Positions 23,967 through 28,213 of a stretch of 64,000 bases of DNA are shown piece by piece. Each line of letters starts with the position of its first letter. Position 1 is the stretch's first letter. The stretch covers positions 1-64,000 of IMG/VR virus record IMGVR_UViG_3300005546_000002, one strand, 5' to 3'. Under the pieces are notes generated by a model. It saw only the letters and a program-made list of their open reading frames with translations, was not told where the DNA came from and searched no databases. The translations under genes and the position numbers were made by a program. This DNA comes from a virus. Lineage: Duplodnaviria > Caudoviricetes.

Positions 23967-25034
23967 TTACGTTGACGCGACTTCCGGTCCGATCTTTTCA
24001 ATCTTCAAGTAGAATTTCCCTTTCGGGTCTGTTCTCGTATAAGACGCCTTGATCTCTCGCCACTCGGCTTCCAGTTCGGGAGTCAACACCACGCTCGACT
24101 GCTTGCCCCACTTGCCCCTAACCAGATAGTTTCCAGCCAGCGCCATCTCAACGCCCCTCAGTCTCTTCTTCAAATCCGCGTCAAGCTTCTCGAACTCATC
24201 GAGCCCGCAGGCTTCCAGAATCGTTCGCAGCTCTCCGAATCGCTCGATATCCTGCAACGTCTGTTCGTCTTGGATTACCCCAACCTGTTCCTGCGAACCT
24301 ATCGGCGGGTTACAGACCGCACCGAAGAACGGACAACGGCGACATTCAGCGGGATCATCGTAAAAGTCCGGGATATCCCCGCCGTCTCGAACATAAGCAA
24401 CTGCTTCTTCTGACTGCTTCCAGAACGCCTCCGCTTTGTCTAGGTGCGTTTCTAGATCAACAGGCAGCGGTAACGGCAGGCCCGGTCGGTCGAGCAATAG
24501 AAAACCAAGAGGCTCCTTCATTCCAAGCATATACATCAACAACTGATATCCGCCTGAGCGAGTCCAGTAGCCATCTAACACGTCATCAAACGCGTGAATC
24601 TTCGCCGTCAACATCGGCGACCACGACTTTGCTTCAATCGGATAGGCATGTCCGTTGTGATCGCCTGAAAACCTGATCCGAGCATCGACCTTGCCGGACA
24701 CAACCTTGCGCCCGAGCCGATCCTTGAGCGTAAACGCCTCCTGCCCGCCTACTACCTCGAATTCCGGTTGTACCAATCGACCGACTCGCGCTAGGTCGGT
24801 CATCATATCCCGCTCTCGGTCCTTGCCGCGCTTGAACCGGGCCAGCGTATCAGAGTCAAACTCCGGTAATATAGCGGACTCTGTCATGTCGTAGACAAGC
24901 CGCCTCGTGCACGGCTTCCATTGACTTGCATAGATATAATCACGGTCTGTCGCCGAATGCCGGTCAAGAGCGACGTATTCAGCCCAGCCGTTAGTAATCA
25001 GATTCGCAATCTCTTCTTTAGTCATTTGAGGCAA
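23967..25034 (-). CDS. Cas4-like PD-(D/E)XK exonuclease
   Basis: YAS...PC.R, GKVDAR, IEAKS, YQLLMY, CRRCPFFGAVC. Confidence 0.8.
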   Translation of the reverse strand: MPQMTKEEIANLITNGWAEYVALDRHSATDRDYIYASQWKPCTRRLVYDMTESAILPEFDSDTLARFKRGKDRERDMMTDLARVGRLVQPEFEVVGGQEAFTLKDRLGRKVVSGKVDARIRFSGDHNGHAYPIEAKSWSPMLTAKIHAFDDVLDGYWTRSGGYQLLMYMLGMKEPLGFLLLDRPGLPLPLPVDLETHLDKAEAFWKQSEEAVAYVRDGGDIPDFYDDPAECRRCPFFGAVCNPPIGSQEQVGVIQDEQTLQDIERFGELRTILEACGLDEFEKLDADLKKRLRGVEMALAGNYLVRGKWGKQSSVVLTPELEAEWREIKASYTRTDPKGKFYLKIEKIGPEVAST

Positions 25035-25252
25035 GCCTTATGTCAGCAACCACGCAGGAGTAAACTTGATCGACTTTTTCACGGGAGGCCATGCGATAGA
25101 TCGGCCTAACGCTGAAATTGATGCCGTACACAACCATGCGCGTCTCATTGCTGAACTCAATCAACAACTCTCGAATCGTCTTTTCAAGGGCATCCTTCCT
25201 CGCGTTAATCTCTTCAATGTCCATATTTTTTGCTATCCCTAAAAGATGGGAA

Positions 25253-26059
25253 TTATATATTTAAGTGCTCCTGTTCATAGCTCTCAGTAGGTTGCAGGCA
25301 GTACGGGCCGCACTCAATATCGCCATCCGGTTCGCCGAAGTTACGAGCGAGGTCTAGCTCATCAAGGAATATGCGAATGCCATCAACGCGGACTAATCGA
25401 GCGCCAATCGCACGACTTTGGATACAGCGCCGTTTGAATACCTCTGGAAAGAATCGTGCGACCCGTTGCCAGTACGAAGGCGAACTCGCCTTCACGCAGC
25501 CCAGTCAGTTGTTGTGCTCAAAGCCGAGCGCATACATTTCCGGCCTCGGAATTCCCGCCTGGCGGAGAATGCGCGCACAGTCTGATTTGCGGATGAAGTT
25601 ATCCCGGAGAATCCATTCAAGCCGCAACTCCGGGTTGTTGTTTTGGAAATCGTTGAATCGTTTCGGCTCATCAGCAGTGAATCCGAAAATATGTATATCG
25701 TTAGAACGCTGGAAGAAATTCCGAGGCACCTTTTTCATTTCAACTGTACAGCGCGCCCCTTTGACTCCGATCATATATCGCGTGCGCTCAAAAACCTCAT
25801 CAACCGAATCGTATTCAGTCGAGCGAATGACGGTTATTGCCTTGCCTGTCCAGTTCTGCACGTCTCGAAAGAACCGTCTATTATCTGGGTGCTCCGTGTT
25901 CATTGTGTCGCAGTACACGAGTTCGGATTCCATCGGGTATTTCTGGACAGCTAAATATCCCGCGACCGCAGACGCTTCACCGCAGGAAAACCAAACAATC
26001 ACCCGTTGGTTTATCGGGTTCGCCTTACCTTCAAATCGCCAAGGTCTATCAGGGTTCAT
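25253..26059 (-). CDS. PAPS-reductase-family protein with in-frame UGA (codon 185); candidate selenoprotein, 268 aa
   Basis: VWFSCGEASA PP-loop-like motif, EHPDN.RF, ARCT..MKK; ORFs 25505..26059 and 25253..25495 are in the same frame and read GFEHNN-TGA-LGCVKASSPSYW. Confidence 0.75.
25476..25493 (-). promoter_or_regulatory. Bacterial SECIS-like hairpin
   Basis: GAAGGCG-AGUU-CGCCUUC starts 11 nt after the UGA (25505-25507); GU at loop positions 2-3. Confidence 0.55.
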
Positions 26060-26117
26060 CGTTTTTTGCCTTCTTACTCGACGGAGCAGTCAAGTATATA
26101 ATTCCCTAAAAGATAAG

Positions 26118-27473
26118 TCACATTGACGTGACGGTTAAACTTTCTTCGTCGGTAACACGCGAAACGATCATCTGAAATCCTTGGCGCTCCGCGACCGCTT
26201 TGAGCGTCTCTAGATGACCTGCGTCCAGTCGCTCTCCCCCATCCATTACCAGACATTGAAGCTCTCGCGGGCGCAACAGCGCTACCTCGACGGCTACGGA
26301 GAGAATTTGTTCTGCTGTGTTCACCGCGCCCAGAGGTATCCCGTCGATGTAGATTTTGCCTTCCGCGATCTCAAGCCCGCTGATAGGAATCTCCGAAGCC
26401 AGTTTCGCTTTCAACGTTTCGAGCCCGGCTAGAGCCCTCTCGCTTTCTTCTACCAACAAGGCAAGCCGCTCTGCTTCCGTTTGCAGCCCTTCAATTACCC
26501 GCTTCGTACCCTCTGCCCGGTTAATAGCCTCGCTCTGAGCCTTCAACTCGCCCTGCCTCGCAGACAGCGTTTCCAACTTCGGTCTGTGCTGCGAATCGAA
26601 TTCCTCCAATGCTGTTCTTGCCGTAGAGCGAGCCGCTTCGACAGCATCATCGCGCGTCATCAGCGCATCGAAGGTAAGCTGACCCGCCTGCTTCCTAAGC
26701 CTATCTATCTCAGCTTCCAGCTCGCTCACTATCGTAGCACAAGTTTTCTCGTAACGATTTTGAGCGCTCGTTACTTCCTCGCCTAGCATTGTATCTATGT
26801 CGATCTTAACTCTCGTCTTCGCAAGGTCTAATGCGGCCAGTTCCTCGTCAATCCGAGCAAGTTCCGGTCGCACGTCTTCCAGTTCGGGTAATCCGCTTGA
26901 AAGCTGCTCGATAGTAGTCCGCTTTGCTTTCAGGTCTCGGCTCTGATCCCTGCGGGCTCCGTAGTAGAACTTCCGTAGCCGCTCCAACACCGCGAGCCCG
27001 TGGCCGTTCAAAGACTCGCCCTTTGGAAGCTCTACACCAACCTGCTGTAACTCTTCCGCTCCGATCTTAACAGGCAGACTCTCCATGAGAATCTCGACCC
27101 GACGCGCCTCCGTCCCTTGAAGGAACTCTCCAATCGGATCATAGCTAACCAAATCAACCATCTCATCTATCACAGACTGGGGCGCTGATATTTTCCGACC
27201 CTTTTCGTCCTTCACGACCCGTTCCGACTTGCTCGGTTTCACCGTCAAGGTAACGGTCGCTCCGTCGTCCAACGTAGCCTTAACAGAACCGCTCTCCGCG
27301 CCTTTTCGGATCAATCCCGGATCGTGACCACCGCTCACCAGCGCTTGCAACCCAGCTATCACCGACGACTTCCCTTGCGCGTTCCGTCCGCTGATTACCG
27401 TAAACGTCCCCGGCTCGATAACCAGACTTTCGATGCCCCGGATATTCGATATCTCAATCTTTGTTATCTTCAT
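26118..27473 (-). CDS. SbcC/Rad50-like ABC ATPase with coiled coil
   Basis: MKITKIEISNIRGI...GRNAQGKSS, long coiled coil, LVMDGGERLD Walker B region; start moved to 27473. Confidence 0.85.
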   Translation of the reverse strand: MKITKIEISNIRGIESLVIEPGTFTVISGRNAQGKSSVIAGLQALVSGGHDPGLIRKGAESGSVKATLDDGATVTLTVKPSKSERVVKDEKGRKISAPQSVIDEMVDLVSYDPIGEFLQGTEARRVEILMESLPVKIGAEELQQVGVELPKGESLNGHGLAVLERLRKFYYGARRDQSRDLKAKRTTIEQLSSGLPELEDVRPELARIDEELAALDLAKTRVKIDIDTMLGEEVTSAQNRYEKTCATIVSELEAEIDRLRKQAGQLTFDALMTRDDAVEAARSTARTALEEFDSQHRPKLETLSARQGELKAQSEAINRAEGTKRVIEGLQTEAERLALLVEESERALAGLETLKAKLASEIPISGLEIAEGKIYIDGIPLGAVNTAEQILSVAVEVALLRPRELQCLVMDGGERLDAGHLETLKAVAERQGFQMIVSRVTDEESLTVTSM

Positions 27474-27475
27474 TA

Positions 27476-28213
27476 TTAGAACATCCCCGCTTCCGGCTTG
27501 TAACACGGAATCTGATTCGCCTTTCTCCAATAGAACTTTTCGTCCGCTCTCATTAACAACAGATGCGCCAGTACATCGTCTGTCGGCACCATCGCCCCCG
27601 CCCAAGAACCCTCGTAGTAGCCAATAGGATGCAGACAGAGAGCACATAAGAATCTTACTTGAGACTCTACTAGCTCTCGCTTACCCCAATCCCATGTTTT
27701 TCCGGTCATCGAGCAAGCCGCTGTCGGGCGGAGCCTGCGGAAAATGTAACAGACCCCACTATGCTTACTCGTCTCGATAAACATCCCGGTCAGGCAATAG
27801 GCTGCGAATAGATGCTCCGGGATCAGCCCTTGCAGCTTGTCCATCGCCCTAACCTCTGCGTCGAAATCCCACGTAGCCGCCGCTCGAAACGTGTCAAACA
27901 TCGAAGTCGCCGCTCGGTTCTCTCTAGGACCGATTGCAGCATGATACTGACCGTCCTTGTCCTGCACGGACCCGACATCCGCATGATACTTCGTGCTATA
28001 CCACGAATTCACAACCCGGTCTGATTGCGGCTCCAATTGCCTCTTGAATATATCAGCAAACGGATATCCCCGAGCTATCACCATGCTCATACCATCCACA
28101 GGAACCGGACAGCCCGCCCATTCTCCGCGCTGGAAAGCTGCGCGGTTCACCGCCTGCCGGAAGGCCGCGTTCTGCGCGGAAGTCTGTTTTGCTTTGTCCC
28201 GCTTCTGCTTCAA
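27476..28213 (-). CDS. Hypothetical phage protein
   Basis: 245-aa ORF tightly packed between neighbours. Confidence 0.65.
   Translation of the reverse strand: MKQKRDKAKQTSAQNAAFRQAVNRAAFQRGEWAGCPVPVDGMSMVIARGYPFADIFKRQLEPQSDRVVNSWYSTKYHADVGSVQDKDGQYHAAIGPRENRAATSMFDTFRAAATWDFDAEVRAMDKLQGLIPEHLFAAYCLTGMFIETSKHSGVCYIFRRLRPTAACSMTGKTWDWGKRELVESQVRFLCALCLHPIGYYEGSWAGAMVPTDDVLAHLLLMRADEKFYWRKANQIPCYKPEAGMF

What the first reader, a model, noticed from the sequence alone, without database searches (positions are those of the whole stretch)
25253..26059. Candidate phage selenoprotein: UGA at a CxxC cysteine with a SECIS-like hairpin
Seen: two annotated ORFs are one reading frame interrupted by a single TGA (25505-25507), reading GFEHNN-U-LGCVK. 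A perfect 7-bp stem GAAGGCG-AGUU-CGCCUUC begins exactly 11 nt downstream, with G at loop position 2 followed by U. Established: phage PAPS-reductase-like proteins of this type carry NNCxGCVK; bacterial SECIS elements lie just 3' of the UGA (11 nt in E. coli fdhF) with a G early in the apical loop. TGA is a normal stop elsewhere in this window, so this is not global recoding. Inference: a UxxC selenoprotein decoded by host SelB/tRNA-Sec, possibly with Sec as a metal or Fe-S ligand. A plain TGC-to-TGA nonsense mutation remains possible.
Basis: partly seen in the sequence, partly recalled or inferred. Interest (0 to 1): 0.88.

Follow-up and report, generated by a model that had tools for sequence, protein, structure and literature searches.

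The report
Probable selenocysteine codon in phage enzyme
A gene of an uncultured 96-kb phage has a UGA "stop" where all its relatives have a cysteine, followed by an RNA hairpin with the same spacing and loop letters as real bacterial selenocysteine signals, so it is probably read as selenocysteine by the host, though a simple knockout mutation is not excluded.

Summary
A minus-strand gene (26059..25253) of the phage PAPS-reductase-like family (phrog_424; solved relative PptA, PDB 21fy) is one frame broken only by TGA at 25507..25505. The TGA sits at the first Cys of the invariant NNCxGCVK motif. The 83 codons after it are intact and as conserved as those before it.

Eleven nt after the UGA lies a 7 bp stem (8 with a U-G pair) with loop AGUU. 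G and U fall at nt 23 and 24, the register of E. coli fdhF and of formate dehydrogenase SECIS elements I extracted from Acidobacteriota genomes.

Chance gives such a hairpin about 3e-4 to 2e-3 of the time. None of 165 Cys-encoding homologue genes has one. It is the only one among the phage's 3,133 TGA triplets under the strict test.

Against selenocysteine:
- No other family member has TGA at this column in any collection I could scan.
- The host is unknown.
- Read support could not be checked.
- The E. coli bulged U17 is absent.

Verdict: selenocysteine recoding about 0.68, recent nonsense mutation about 0.24.

This scan reported a UGA at a conserved Cys of this family before on other DNA (e1-5683415). 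I could confirm only one other member, with TGA at the second Cys (L295) and no canonical hairpin.

The parts
25253..26059 (-). Whole PptA-like / PAPS-reductase-fold PP-loop gene: 268 codons including the in-frame TGA, ending in TAA at 25255..25253.
   Evidence: The translation is one frame with a single internal stop. phrog_424 matches residues 16-257 across the TGA, E 2e-43. A profile of the family matches PDB 21fy_C 'PptA' at E 4e-73. The AF2 model (pLDDT 84) matches APS/PAPS reductases, TtuA and LarE.
25505..25507 (-). In-frame UGA (codon 185) at the first Cys of the invariant CxxC motif (NNCxGCVK); proposed Sec codon.
   Evidence: Searches show the codon. The column is Cys in 18 of 18 aligned homologues and TGC or TGT in 165 distinct homologue genes. 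Only 2 of 103 possible single-base nonsense paths in this gene hit the CxxC.
25494..25504 (-). 11-nt spacer between the UGA and the stem (nt 4-14, counting the U of UGA as nt 1).
   Evidence: The spacer has the same length in E. coli fdhF and in Acidobacteriota FdhA SECIS elements L302, L303 and L305.
25476..25493 (-). SECIS-like hairpin: 5' arm nt 15-21 (25493..25487), loop AGUU nt 22-25 (25486..25483, with G23 at 25485 and U24 at 25484), 3' arm nt 26-32 (25482..25476). A U14-G33 wobble pair extends it to 25475..25494.
   Evidence: Folded. It is unique in the window. Its geometry equals that of real FdhA SECIS elements, and the null rates are 3e-4 to 2e-3. None of 165 Cys homologues has it. 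It is not a terminator-like site.
25256..25504 (-). 83 codons downstream of the UGA, carrying Cys188, the SPxYW and QSR motifs and the C-terminal ECGPYC.
   Evidence: The frame is open. Every residue that is invariant in alignment A1 is kept. Mean identity to homologues is 0.70 downstream against 0.66 upstream.
26093..26132 (-). Upstream signals: one copy of the genome-wide palindrome (terminator-like, 26132..26117) and a sigma-70-like promoter (26121..26093) in front of the gene.
   Evidence: Consensus scan only. These are weak matches, and their number is no higher than in shuffled sequence.

Best explanation
The gene encodes a full-length PptA-like enzyme of the PAPS-reductase fold (a PP-loop ATP pyrophosphatase). 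Codon 185 is UGA, at the first Cys of the CxxC motif, and is read as selenocysteine. The proposed mechanism is the ordinary bacterial one, borrowed from the host. The in-ORF hairpin at nt 15-32 after the UGA acts as a SECIS. It presents G23 and U24 in a 4-nt loop, 11 nt from the UGA, to host SelB carrying Sec-tRNA(Sec), which then outcompetes RF2 at the weak UGA-C stop. The product would be a UxxC protein. When selenium or SelB is lacking, a 184-residue truncated product is made instead.

Shown: the UGA lies at an invariant Cys; the downstream frame is intact and conserved; the hairpin has the geometry of real fdhF-type SECIS elements, and Cys homologues lack it.

Inferred: SelB actually decodes the UGA; the host has the Sec trait; the affected Cys belongs to an APS-reductase-like Fe-S or redox site.
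For: 1. Position. The TGA replaces a Cys that is invariant in the family. A random nonsense change would hit the CxxC in 2 of 103 paths and any Cys in 9 of 103.

2. Downstream frame. It is open for 83 codons, keeps all invariant residues, and is no more diverged than the upstream part. phrog_424 and PptA align across the TGA.

3. Hairpin geometry. The window has an 11-nt spacer, a stem from nt 15, and loop A22-G23-U24-U25. E. coli fdhF has an 11-nt spacer with G23 and U24 in the loop (sequence verified; features from PMC8659212). Six Sec-FdhA genes from Acidobacteriota have an 11-12 nt spacer, a 5-8 bp stem and loop AGU(U/C)U or GGUCU.

4. Specificity, strict register test. Stems of 7 bp or more occur in 3.7e-4 of 300,000 synonymous resamples and in 1 of 22,400 in-frame codons. 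Stems of 6 bp or more occur at 0 of 260 Cys codons, and this is the only one among all 3,133 TGA triplets of the phage.

5. Specificity, broader test. I calibrated a looser criterion on 29 real Acidobacteriota SECIS elements (FdhA and SelD); 24 of 29 pass at 5 bp and 7 of 29 at 8 bp. The window scores 8 bp. Null rates at 8 bp are 2.9e-4 for synonymous resamples and 6 of 22,400 for in-frame codons. No Cys homologue of 165 reaches 5 bp.

6. It passes all four constraints of the published bSECIS model (PMC13188914).

7. The truncated 184-aa product is recorded from JGI/IMG, ENA and Logan on 3 contigs, so the TGA is not peculiar to a single assembly.

8. The nearest genome-borne homologue (57%) lies in an Acidobacteriota MAG that has SelB and a Sec-containing SelD. 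SelB is above cut-off in 160 of 201 sampled genomes of that phylum.
Against: No second sequence with TGA at this column was found:
- 0 real hits in IMG/VR, where three patterns gave only chance hits.
- 0 in JGI metagenomes with the strict motif.
- 0 in 401 Acidobacteriota genomes.
- Among the best 120 short family proteins, only the window's own ends before Cys1.

The three closest relatives (82, 77 and 74% identical) encode Cys. Their DNA could not be fetched, so whether they already carry the hairpin is unknown.

The host is unknown. The phage encodes no tRNA-Sec, SelD or any tRNA.

The bulged U17 that E. coli SelB needs is absent; nt 17 is a paired A. No Rfam family matches, even at E 10.

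The loose bSECIS model is passed by 14 of 45 Cys homologues, so that model alone proves little.

By likeness to APS reductase the residue would be an Fe-S ligand. I know of no natural Sec in that role, and an advantage is not obvious.

I fixed my register test after seeing the match with FdhA. The broader criterion B was meant to offset this.
Confidence: 0.68

Rival explanations
1. Recent nonsense mutation. A TGC or TGT to TGA change has inactivated an accessory phage gene in the sampled lineage. It is too recent for the downstream part to have decayed, and the hairpin is a coincidence of codon choice.
For: The TGA is private to this genome in all collections scanned. All roughly 3,500 homologous proteins seen are Cys forms or unrelated fragments. 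The change is a single base. Other broken forms of the family exist, namely frameshifts and truncations (P0131, P0144, P0157). GC-rich homologues often fold into some hairpin in this stretch (14 of 45 pass the loose model). In a scan of some 250,000 windows a few coincidences are expected.
Against: Two independent coincidences are needed: hitting the CxxC (2 of 103 paths) and having an fdhF-register hairpin (3e-4 to 2e-3). Together that is about 1e-5 to 1e-4. The hairpin needs several non-preferred codons (Ser AGU 12%, Pro CCU 17%). It is absent from 165 Cys homologues. No other defect is present in the gene.
Confidence: 0.24
2. Leaky stop without selenocysteine. The weak UGA-C context, possibly helped by the hairpin, allows low-level readthrough by a near-cognate tRNA (Trp or Cys). 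This would give a set ratio of a 184-aa product and a full-length product.
For: UGA followed by C is the weakest termination context in E. coli (established knowledge, from memory). The frame stays open. Structures downstream of a stop can stimulate readthrough in viruses (general theme of PMC8310308, abstract seen).
Against: Trp at an invariant Cys of a CxxC site should inactivate the protein. Nothing in the family suggests that a 184-aa form is used, because other short forms are fragments or frameshifts. The hairpin's register and its G23/U24 are specific to SelB-type elements.
Confidence: 0.05
3. Sequencing or assembly error, or a minority variant fixed by the assembler. The real phage would have a Cys codon.
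Against: The same 184-aa truncated product is on record from three sources, including Logan, which assembles runs on its own. Consensus substitution errors are rare in deep short-read assemblies (general knowledge). An error would not create the matching hairpin.
Confidence: 0.03

Closest known systems
Bacterial selenoprotein genes with an in-ORF SECIS read by SelB (prototype E. coli fdhF codon 140; also the FdhA and SelD genes of Acidobacteriota extracted here)
   Same: An in-frame UGA lies where homologues have Cys. The hairpin sits inside the coding sequence, with an 11-nt spacer, a stem starting at nt 15, and G23 and U24 in a small apical loop. UGA is followed by C. The element meets all four constraints of the published bSECIS model.
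   Different: The gene is phage-encoded, in a protein family with no published Sec member that I could find (the 2026 review PMC13188914 mentions neither phage nor PAPS). There is no bulged U17. Only a single sequence is known. Host and decoding are untested.
PptA (PDB 21fy chain C) and phrog_424, the phage 'PAPS reductase' family
   Same: Full-length sequence match (E 4e-73 for the family profile against PptA; 2e-43 to phrog_424). Same length, same NNCxGCVK motif and same C-terminal CxxxC.
   Different: Every other member examined has Cys at codon 185. The Pfam model PF01507 does not reach significance on this sequence. I found no paper on the function of PptA.
Assimilatory APS reductase (CysH, e.g. 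PDB 2goy), a [4Fe-4S] enzyme with Cys-Cys...CxxC ligands and a C-terminal ECGLH catalytic Cys
   Same: Best structural matches of the model. The family has an analogous CxxC, a GARCTxExKK segment that resembles the CCxxRKVxP segment, and an ECG motif on a flexible C-terminal tail (motif comparison from memory).
   Different: Sequence identity is only 11-16%. Cluster binding by this family is not shown. Sec as an Fe-S ligand has no natural precedent that I know of.
Earlier report of this scan, e1-5683415 (groundwater phage, same enzyme family, UGA at a conserved Cys in at least five lineages)
   Same: Same protein family, and the same idea of UGA at a conserved Cys plus a hairpin.
   Different: It concerns other DNA, and I could not see its sequences. 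My own scans found one further member with TGA (L295). That TGA is at the second Cys, and its hairpin lies about 38 nt away and does not fit the fdhF register.

Membership tests
Bacterial selenoprotein gene with in-ORF SECIS | In-frame UGA aligned with Cys in homologues | tested here: met
   codon 185 is TGA; 165 homologue genes have TGC or TGT.
Bacterial selenoprotein gene with in-ORF SECIS | Reading frame open and conserved after the UGA | tested here: met
   83 codons, all invariant residues kept, identity 0.70 downstream against 0.66 upstream.
Bacterial selenoprotein gene with in-ORF SECIS | Hairpin meeting the bSECIS consensus (loop 3-9 nt, stem 4-16 bp, G in the first two loop positions, 16-37 nt from the UGA, MFE at most -7.5 kcal/mol) | tested here: met
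   Model taken from PMC13188914. The window has loop AGUU, 18 nt from the UGA, -13.2 kcal/mol. The criterion is weak: 14 of 45 Cys homologues also pass.
Bacterial selenoprotein gene with in-ORF SECIS | fdhF-type geometry: upper stem-loop 11 nt from the UGA, with G23 and U24 in the apical loop | tested here: met
   Null rates are 3e-4 to 2e-3. It is the only such TGA among 3,133 in the phage.
Bacterial selenoprotein gene with in-ORF SECIS | Bulged U17 (SelB contact in E. coli) | tested here: not met
   Nt 17 is A, paired with U30. Acidobacteriota FdhA elements have U17 in a U-G pair rather than a bulge, so the feature may be specific to E. coli.
Bacterial selenoprotein gene with in-ORF SECIS | Hairpin absent from Cys-encoding homologues | tested here: met
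   0 of 165 in this register.
Bacterial selenoprotein gene with in-ORF SECIS | Independent lineages with UGA at the same column (Sec/Cys pairs) | tested here: not met
   No real hit. One member has TGA at the neighbouring Cys188 (L295).
Bacterial selenoprotein gene with in-ORF SECIS | Host carries selA, selB, selC and selD | not testable with these tools
Indirect evidence: the nearest genome-borne homologue lies in an Acidobacteriota MAG with SelB and Sec-SelD, and SelB is present in 160 of 201 sampled genomes of the phylum.
Bacterial selenoprotein gene with in-ORF SECIS | Selenium actually incorporated (75Se label, mass spectrometry) | not testable with these tools
   Needs an experiment.
Rfam SECIS families | Match to a curated covariance model | tested here: not met
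   No match in 25380-25560 at E up to 10, and none in the window at gathering score. To my knowledge the Rfam bacterial SECIS models are lineage-specific.
PptA-like / phrog_424 PAPS-reductase-fold PP-loop enzymes | Full-length sequence match to the family | tested here: met
   phrog_424 E 2e-43 over residues 16-257. PptA 21fy_C E 4e-73 with the family profile.
PptA-like / phrog_424 PAPS-reductase-fold PP-loop enzymes | PAPS/APS-reductase (adenine nucleotide alpha-hydrolase) fold | tested here: met
   AF2 model with pLDDT 84 and pTM 0.80. Foldseek top hits are APS/PAPS reductases, TtuA and LarE.
PptA-like / phrog_424 PAPS-reductase-fold PP-loop enzymes | Conserved Cys set (C104, C185, C188, C250, C254) | tested here: inconclusive
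   Four of the five are present as Cys. C185 is the TGA.
Pfam PF01507 (PAPS_reduct) | Score above the gathering threshold | tested here: not met
   0 Pfam families at E 0.01, although some close relatives carry a precomputed PF01507 hit.

The most novel reading that the evidence does not exclude
A tailed phage encodes its own selenoprotein and relies on the host's SelB system to make it. The selenocysteine replaces a Cys that, by likeness to APS reductase, ligates a [4Fe-4S] cluster or forms the redox or persulfide site of a PP-loop sulfur-transfer or nucleic-acid-modifying enzyme. That would be a natural Se-ligated Fe-S or selenol site in a family never linked to selenium. It would also make expression of a phage gene depend on the host's selenium status.
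Probability: 0.3. Interest if true: 0.9.

Novelty: new variant of a known kind. Interest (0 to 1): 0.74.

Why it matters
The papers I could search describe no phage-encoded selenoprotein (the 2026 review of prokaryotic selenoproteomes mentions neither phages nor this enzyme family). If this reading is right:
- Phages of Sec-using hosts can recruit the host's recoding machinery.
- Gene callers systematically split such genes into two 'hypothetical' ORFs.
- A widespread phage enzyme of unknown role would gain a handle for study, because a Sec/Cys pair usually marks the chemically active residue.
- Full-length expression would depend on selenium supply and on a SelB-bearing host, which would be a new kind of host-range or conditional-expression constraint.

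If it is only a nonsense mutation, the finding is an ordinary pseudogene.

Tried and rejected
- Global TGA recoding: rejected. TGA is the commonest stop of long frames, no suppressor or any other tRNA is encoded, and no other family spans a TGA in the window.
- Split annotations in cultured phages (P8625, 1M3-16, P2559Y, Y3) looked like more TGA cases but are only overlapping neighbour genes. The unannotated JUN5 homologue is intact.
- Pattern hits L136-L138, L299, L300 and 37 of the 38 hits are chance matches in closed frames.
- A search for C-terminal ORFs starting just after the TGA found only 4 fragments, all starting upstream with the Cys intact.
- Synteny with homologue loci, to find related phages or a host: none. 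blastn against phage records: no match.
- MuF, which earlier notes of this scan report as a candidate Sec protein in other phages: absent from this phage.
- Hairpin as a terminator or as a copy of the genome-wide palindrome: no.
- Rfam: nothing.
- Papers on PptA or on the function of phage PAPS-reductase-like proteins: none found.
So read support, the DNA of the three closest relatives, and kin genomes could not be examined.
- My initial odds were about 10% for Sec. They rose only after my own comparison with real SECIS elements.

Full report
**The object.** The window is the first 64 kb of a single 95,866-bp contig with direct terminal repeats, estimated 100% complete by CheckV. It has 53.5% G+C and encodes no tRNA or tmRNA. 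Earlier notes of this scan describe it as an uncultured tailed phage with a thymine-hypermodification operon and a genome-wide palindrome.

The finding lies on the minus strand. An ORF starts at 26059 and stops at TGA 25507..25505. The same frame then continues for 83 codons to TAA at 25255..25253. Read through, the product has 268 residues. phrog_424 ('phosphoadenosine phosphosulfate reductase') matches residues 16-257, that is, across the TGA, at E 2e-43. A profile of 19 family members matches a solved chain named PptA (PDB 21fy_C) at E 4e-73 over its whole length. Pfam and NCBIfam give nothing significant on the sequence itself. An AlphaFold model (pLDDT 84) resembles APS/PAPS reductases, TtuA and LarE most closely, which is the PP-loop ATP-pyrophosphatase fold.

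**The column.** About 3,560 proteins match at E of 1e-10 or better. Of the best 120, all are 241-277 residues apart from one 456-residue protein and the window's own 184-residue piece. In an alignment of the window with 18 relatives (57-81% identity), residue 185 is an invariant Cys in NNCxGCVK. Cys188, Cys250 and Cys254 are also invariant. At the DNA level, 165 distinct homologue genes have TGC or TGT there. The part after the TGA is as conserved as the part before it, with mean identity 0.70 against 0.66; the homologue-to-homologue baseline is 0.66 against 0.65. So this is one gene with one stop, and nothing else is wrong with it.

**Is the TGA seen elsewhere? No.** Back-translated patterns with TGA at this column gave no real hit. 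The strict motif found 0 in IMG/VR and 0 in 241 million metagenome records. There were 0 hits in 401 Acidobacteriota genomes. A profile search restricted to short proteins showed that only the window's own product ends just before Cys1. The same 184-residue product is on record from JGI/IMG, ENA and Logan, on 3 contigs. That argues against an error of a single assembler, but not for independent samples. I could not lay reads or fetch contigs.

**One other member with TGA.** One other family member does have TGA in the CxxC. IMG/VR contig L295 encodes a full-length phrog_424 protein (32% identical to the window's, E 1e-34) with TGA at the second Cys and an otherwise open frame. Its strong hairpin starts about 29 nt after the UGA, with the loop near nt 38-44, and it does not fit the fdhF register. 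An earlier report of this scan on other DNA (e1-5683415) claims at least five lineages of this family with UGA at a conserved Cys. I could not inspect those sequences.

**The hairpin, loose test.** The published bacterial SECIS model asks for a loop of 3-9 nt, a stem of 4-16 bp, G in the first two loop positions, 16-37 nt from the UGA, and MFE of -7.5 kcal/mol or lower (PMC13188914). The window passes: loop AGUU at 18 nt, -13.2 kcal/mol. But 14 of 45 Cys homologues also pass, and 4 are at least as stable. On its own this model therefore says little here.

**The hairpin, compared with real SECIS elements.** The nearest genome-borne homologue (57%) lies on a 128-kb contig of an Acidobacteriota MAG, and the nearest cultured phage infects Tunturiibacter (51%). 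I therefore extracted real SECIS elements from that phylum. SelB is above its curated cut-off in 160 of 201 sampled genomes. The FdhA genes recovered with one internal TGA read UGA, then an 11-12 nt spacer, then a 5-8 bp stem with loop AGU(U/C)U or GGUCU. Counting the U of UGA as nt 1, those with the 11-nt spacer show A22-G23-U24. The window reads UGA, 11 nt, a stem at nt 15-21, then A22-G23-U24-U25. E. coli fdhF has the same 11-nt spacer and G23/U24. I verified the sequence in 5,419 genomes. PMC8659212 states that the upper stem-loop spans nt 15-31, lies 11 nt from the UGA, and has U17, G23 and U24 as the key bases. The window lacks the bulged U17. The Acidobacteriota elements have U17 in a U-G pair, not a bulge.

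**How often by chance?**

Strict test (G23 and U24 inside a 3-6 nt loop closed by a contiguous stem with at most one G-U pair):

| Set tested | Result |
|---|---|
| Window | 8 bp |
| Six FdhA SECIS elements | 5-8 bp |
| 300,000 synonymous resamples of the 19 downstream codons (phage codon usage) | 7 bp or more: 3.7e-4; 8 bp or more: 1.4e-4 |
| 22,400 in-frame codons of the phage's long ORFs | 7 bp or more: 1 |
| 260 Cys codons | 6 bp or more: 0 |
| 3,133 TGA triplets on both strands | 6 bp or more: only this one |
| 165 Cys homologues | none above 3 bp |

I fixed that register after seeing the match, so I also used a broader criterion B: loop starting 16-20 nt after the codon and matching ^.?G[GU]. 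I calibrated it on 29 real elements. These included SelD, which is itself a TGA-containing selenoprotein in about 31 of 34 sampled genomes. Results are:

| Set tested | Result |
|---|---|
| 29 real SECIS elements | 5 bp or more: 24; 8 bp or more: 7 |
| Window | 8 bp |
| Synonymous resamples | 8 bp or more: 2.9e-4; 6 bp or more: 2e-3 |
| In-frame codons | 8 bp or more: 6 of 22,400 |
| Cys homologues | 5 bp or more: 0 of 165 |

The likelihood ratio from the hairpin is therefore a few hundred. The position adds a factor of 11 to 50, because 9 of 103 nonsense paths hit a Cys and 2 of 103 hit the CxxC.

**Weighing.** The nonsense reading needs a joint coincidence of about 1e-5 to 1e-4. In a very large scan that is not impossible, so the prior matters. 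Arguments against Sec are that the TGA is a singleton, the host is unknown, there is no U17, there is no Rfam match, and the residue probably has a structural or ligand role. Arguments for Sec are the exact register, the use of rare codons to build the stem (Ser AGU 12%, Pro CCU 17%), the intact and conserved tail, the absence of the hairpin from all Cys homologues with DNA to hand, and a candidate host phylum in which the Sec trait is the rule. The singleton status is less damaging than it looks. The phage has no close relative in any collection, and its gene's nearest relative is only 82% identical. I put Sec recoding at about 0.68, a recent nonsense mutation at 0.24, non-Sec readthrough at 0.05, and sequence error at 0.03.

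**What the residue does.** This part is inference. Five Cys are conserved across the wider family: C104, C185, C188, C250 and C254. The arrangement recalls assimilatory APS reductase, with its CxxC cluster ligands and a catalytic Cys in an ECG motif on a flexible C-terminal tail. The tail is of low confidence in the model, and the fold matches that enzyme. If the analogy holds, Sec185 would ligate an Fe-S cluster. Alternatively the CxxC is a redox or persulfide motif, which is the usual place for Sec.

**Unpublished genomes.** The tallies include the unpublished genomes G025, G050 and G153. Without them the SelB tally is 157 of 198. None of the SECIS elements I analysed comes from them.

Noticed in passing
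L295:3308-4039 (minus strand; IMGVR_UViG_3300025439_000041): A distant member of the same family (32% identical, phrog_424 E 4e-43) has its only in-frame stop, TGA, at the second Cys of the CxxC (L295 3509-3511). The frame is otherwise open to the usual DCGxxC end. A 10-bp hairpin starts about 29 nt downstream, outside the fdhF register. It could be a second Sec form with another SECIS class, or a pseudogene.
   Followed up: partly
P0151 (172 aa, ENA, contig 1,195 nt): A family protein from the MIIAWFSCG subgroup ends at ...NNNNCIA, exactly before the second Cys of the CxxC. I could not tell whether a stop codon or a contig edge ends it.
   Followed up: no
Loci L313-L341 and L301-L309 (Acidobacteriota genomes): In the sampled Acidobacteriota, SelB is above cut-off in 160 of 201 genomes. 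SelD itself carries one in-frame TGA in about 31 of 34, and FdhA carries one wherever a full-length gene was found. SelD SECIS loops are GGA, GGC or GGU, 16-20 nt after the UGA. FdhA loops are AGU(U/C)U at nt 22-26.
   Followed up: partly
window 23967-27647: The gene sits between an SbcC/SMC-like ATPase (27647..26118, phrog_1499) and, after a 68-codon ORF (25224..25018), a Cas4-domain exonuclease with a CxxC...C pattern (25034..23967, phrog_1990).
   Followed up: partly
window 25371-26126 (+): A 251-codon open frame antisense to the gene gives tblastn hits in 144 homologue loci. It is a shadow of the conserved gene on the other strand and is not evidence of a second gene.
   Followed up: partly
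L342:577-1335 (Xanthomonas phage JUN5, OK913679.1): An intact 252-residue family member with Cys at both CxxC positions is not annotated in the GenBank record.
   Followed up: yes
P0165, P0166, P0168 (Bacteroides fragilis and gut metagenomes; P0165 on 131 contigs): A 201-204 residue variant of the family keeps the N-terminal PP-loop part but has an unrelated C-terminus without the CxxC. It is a stable, widespread form rather than a fragment.
   Followed up: no
window 26117-26132: A copy of the phage's genome-wide palindrome (GTCACGTCAATGTGAC) supplies the TGA stop of the upstream gene. It scores as a terminator-like site directly before a promoter-like site for the PptA-like gene.
   Followed up: no
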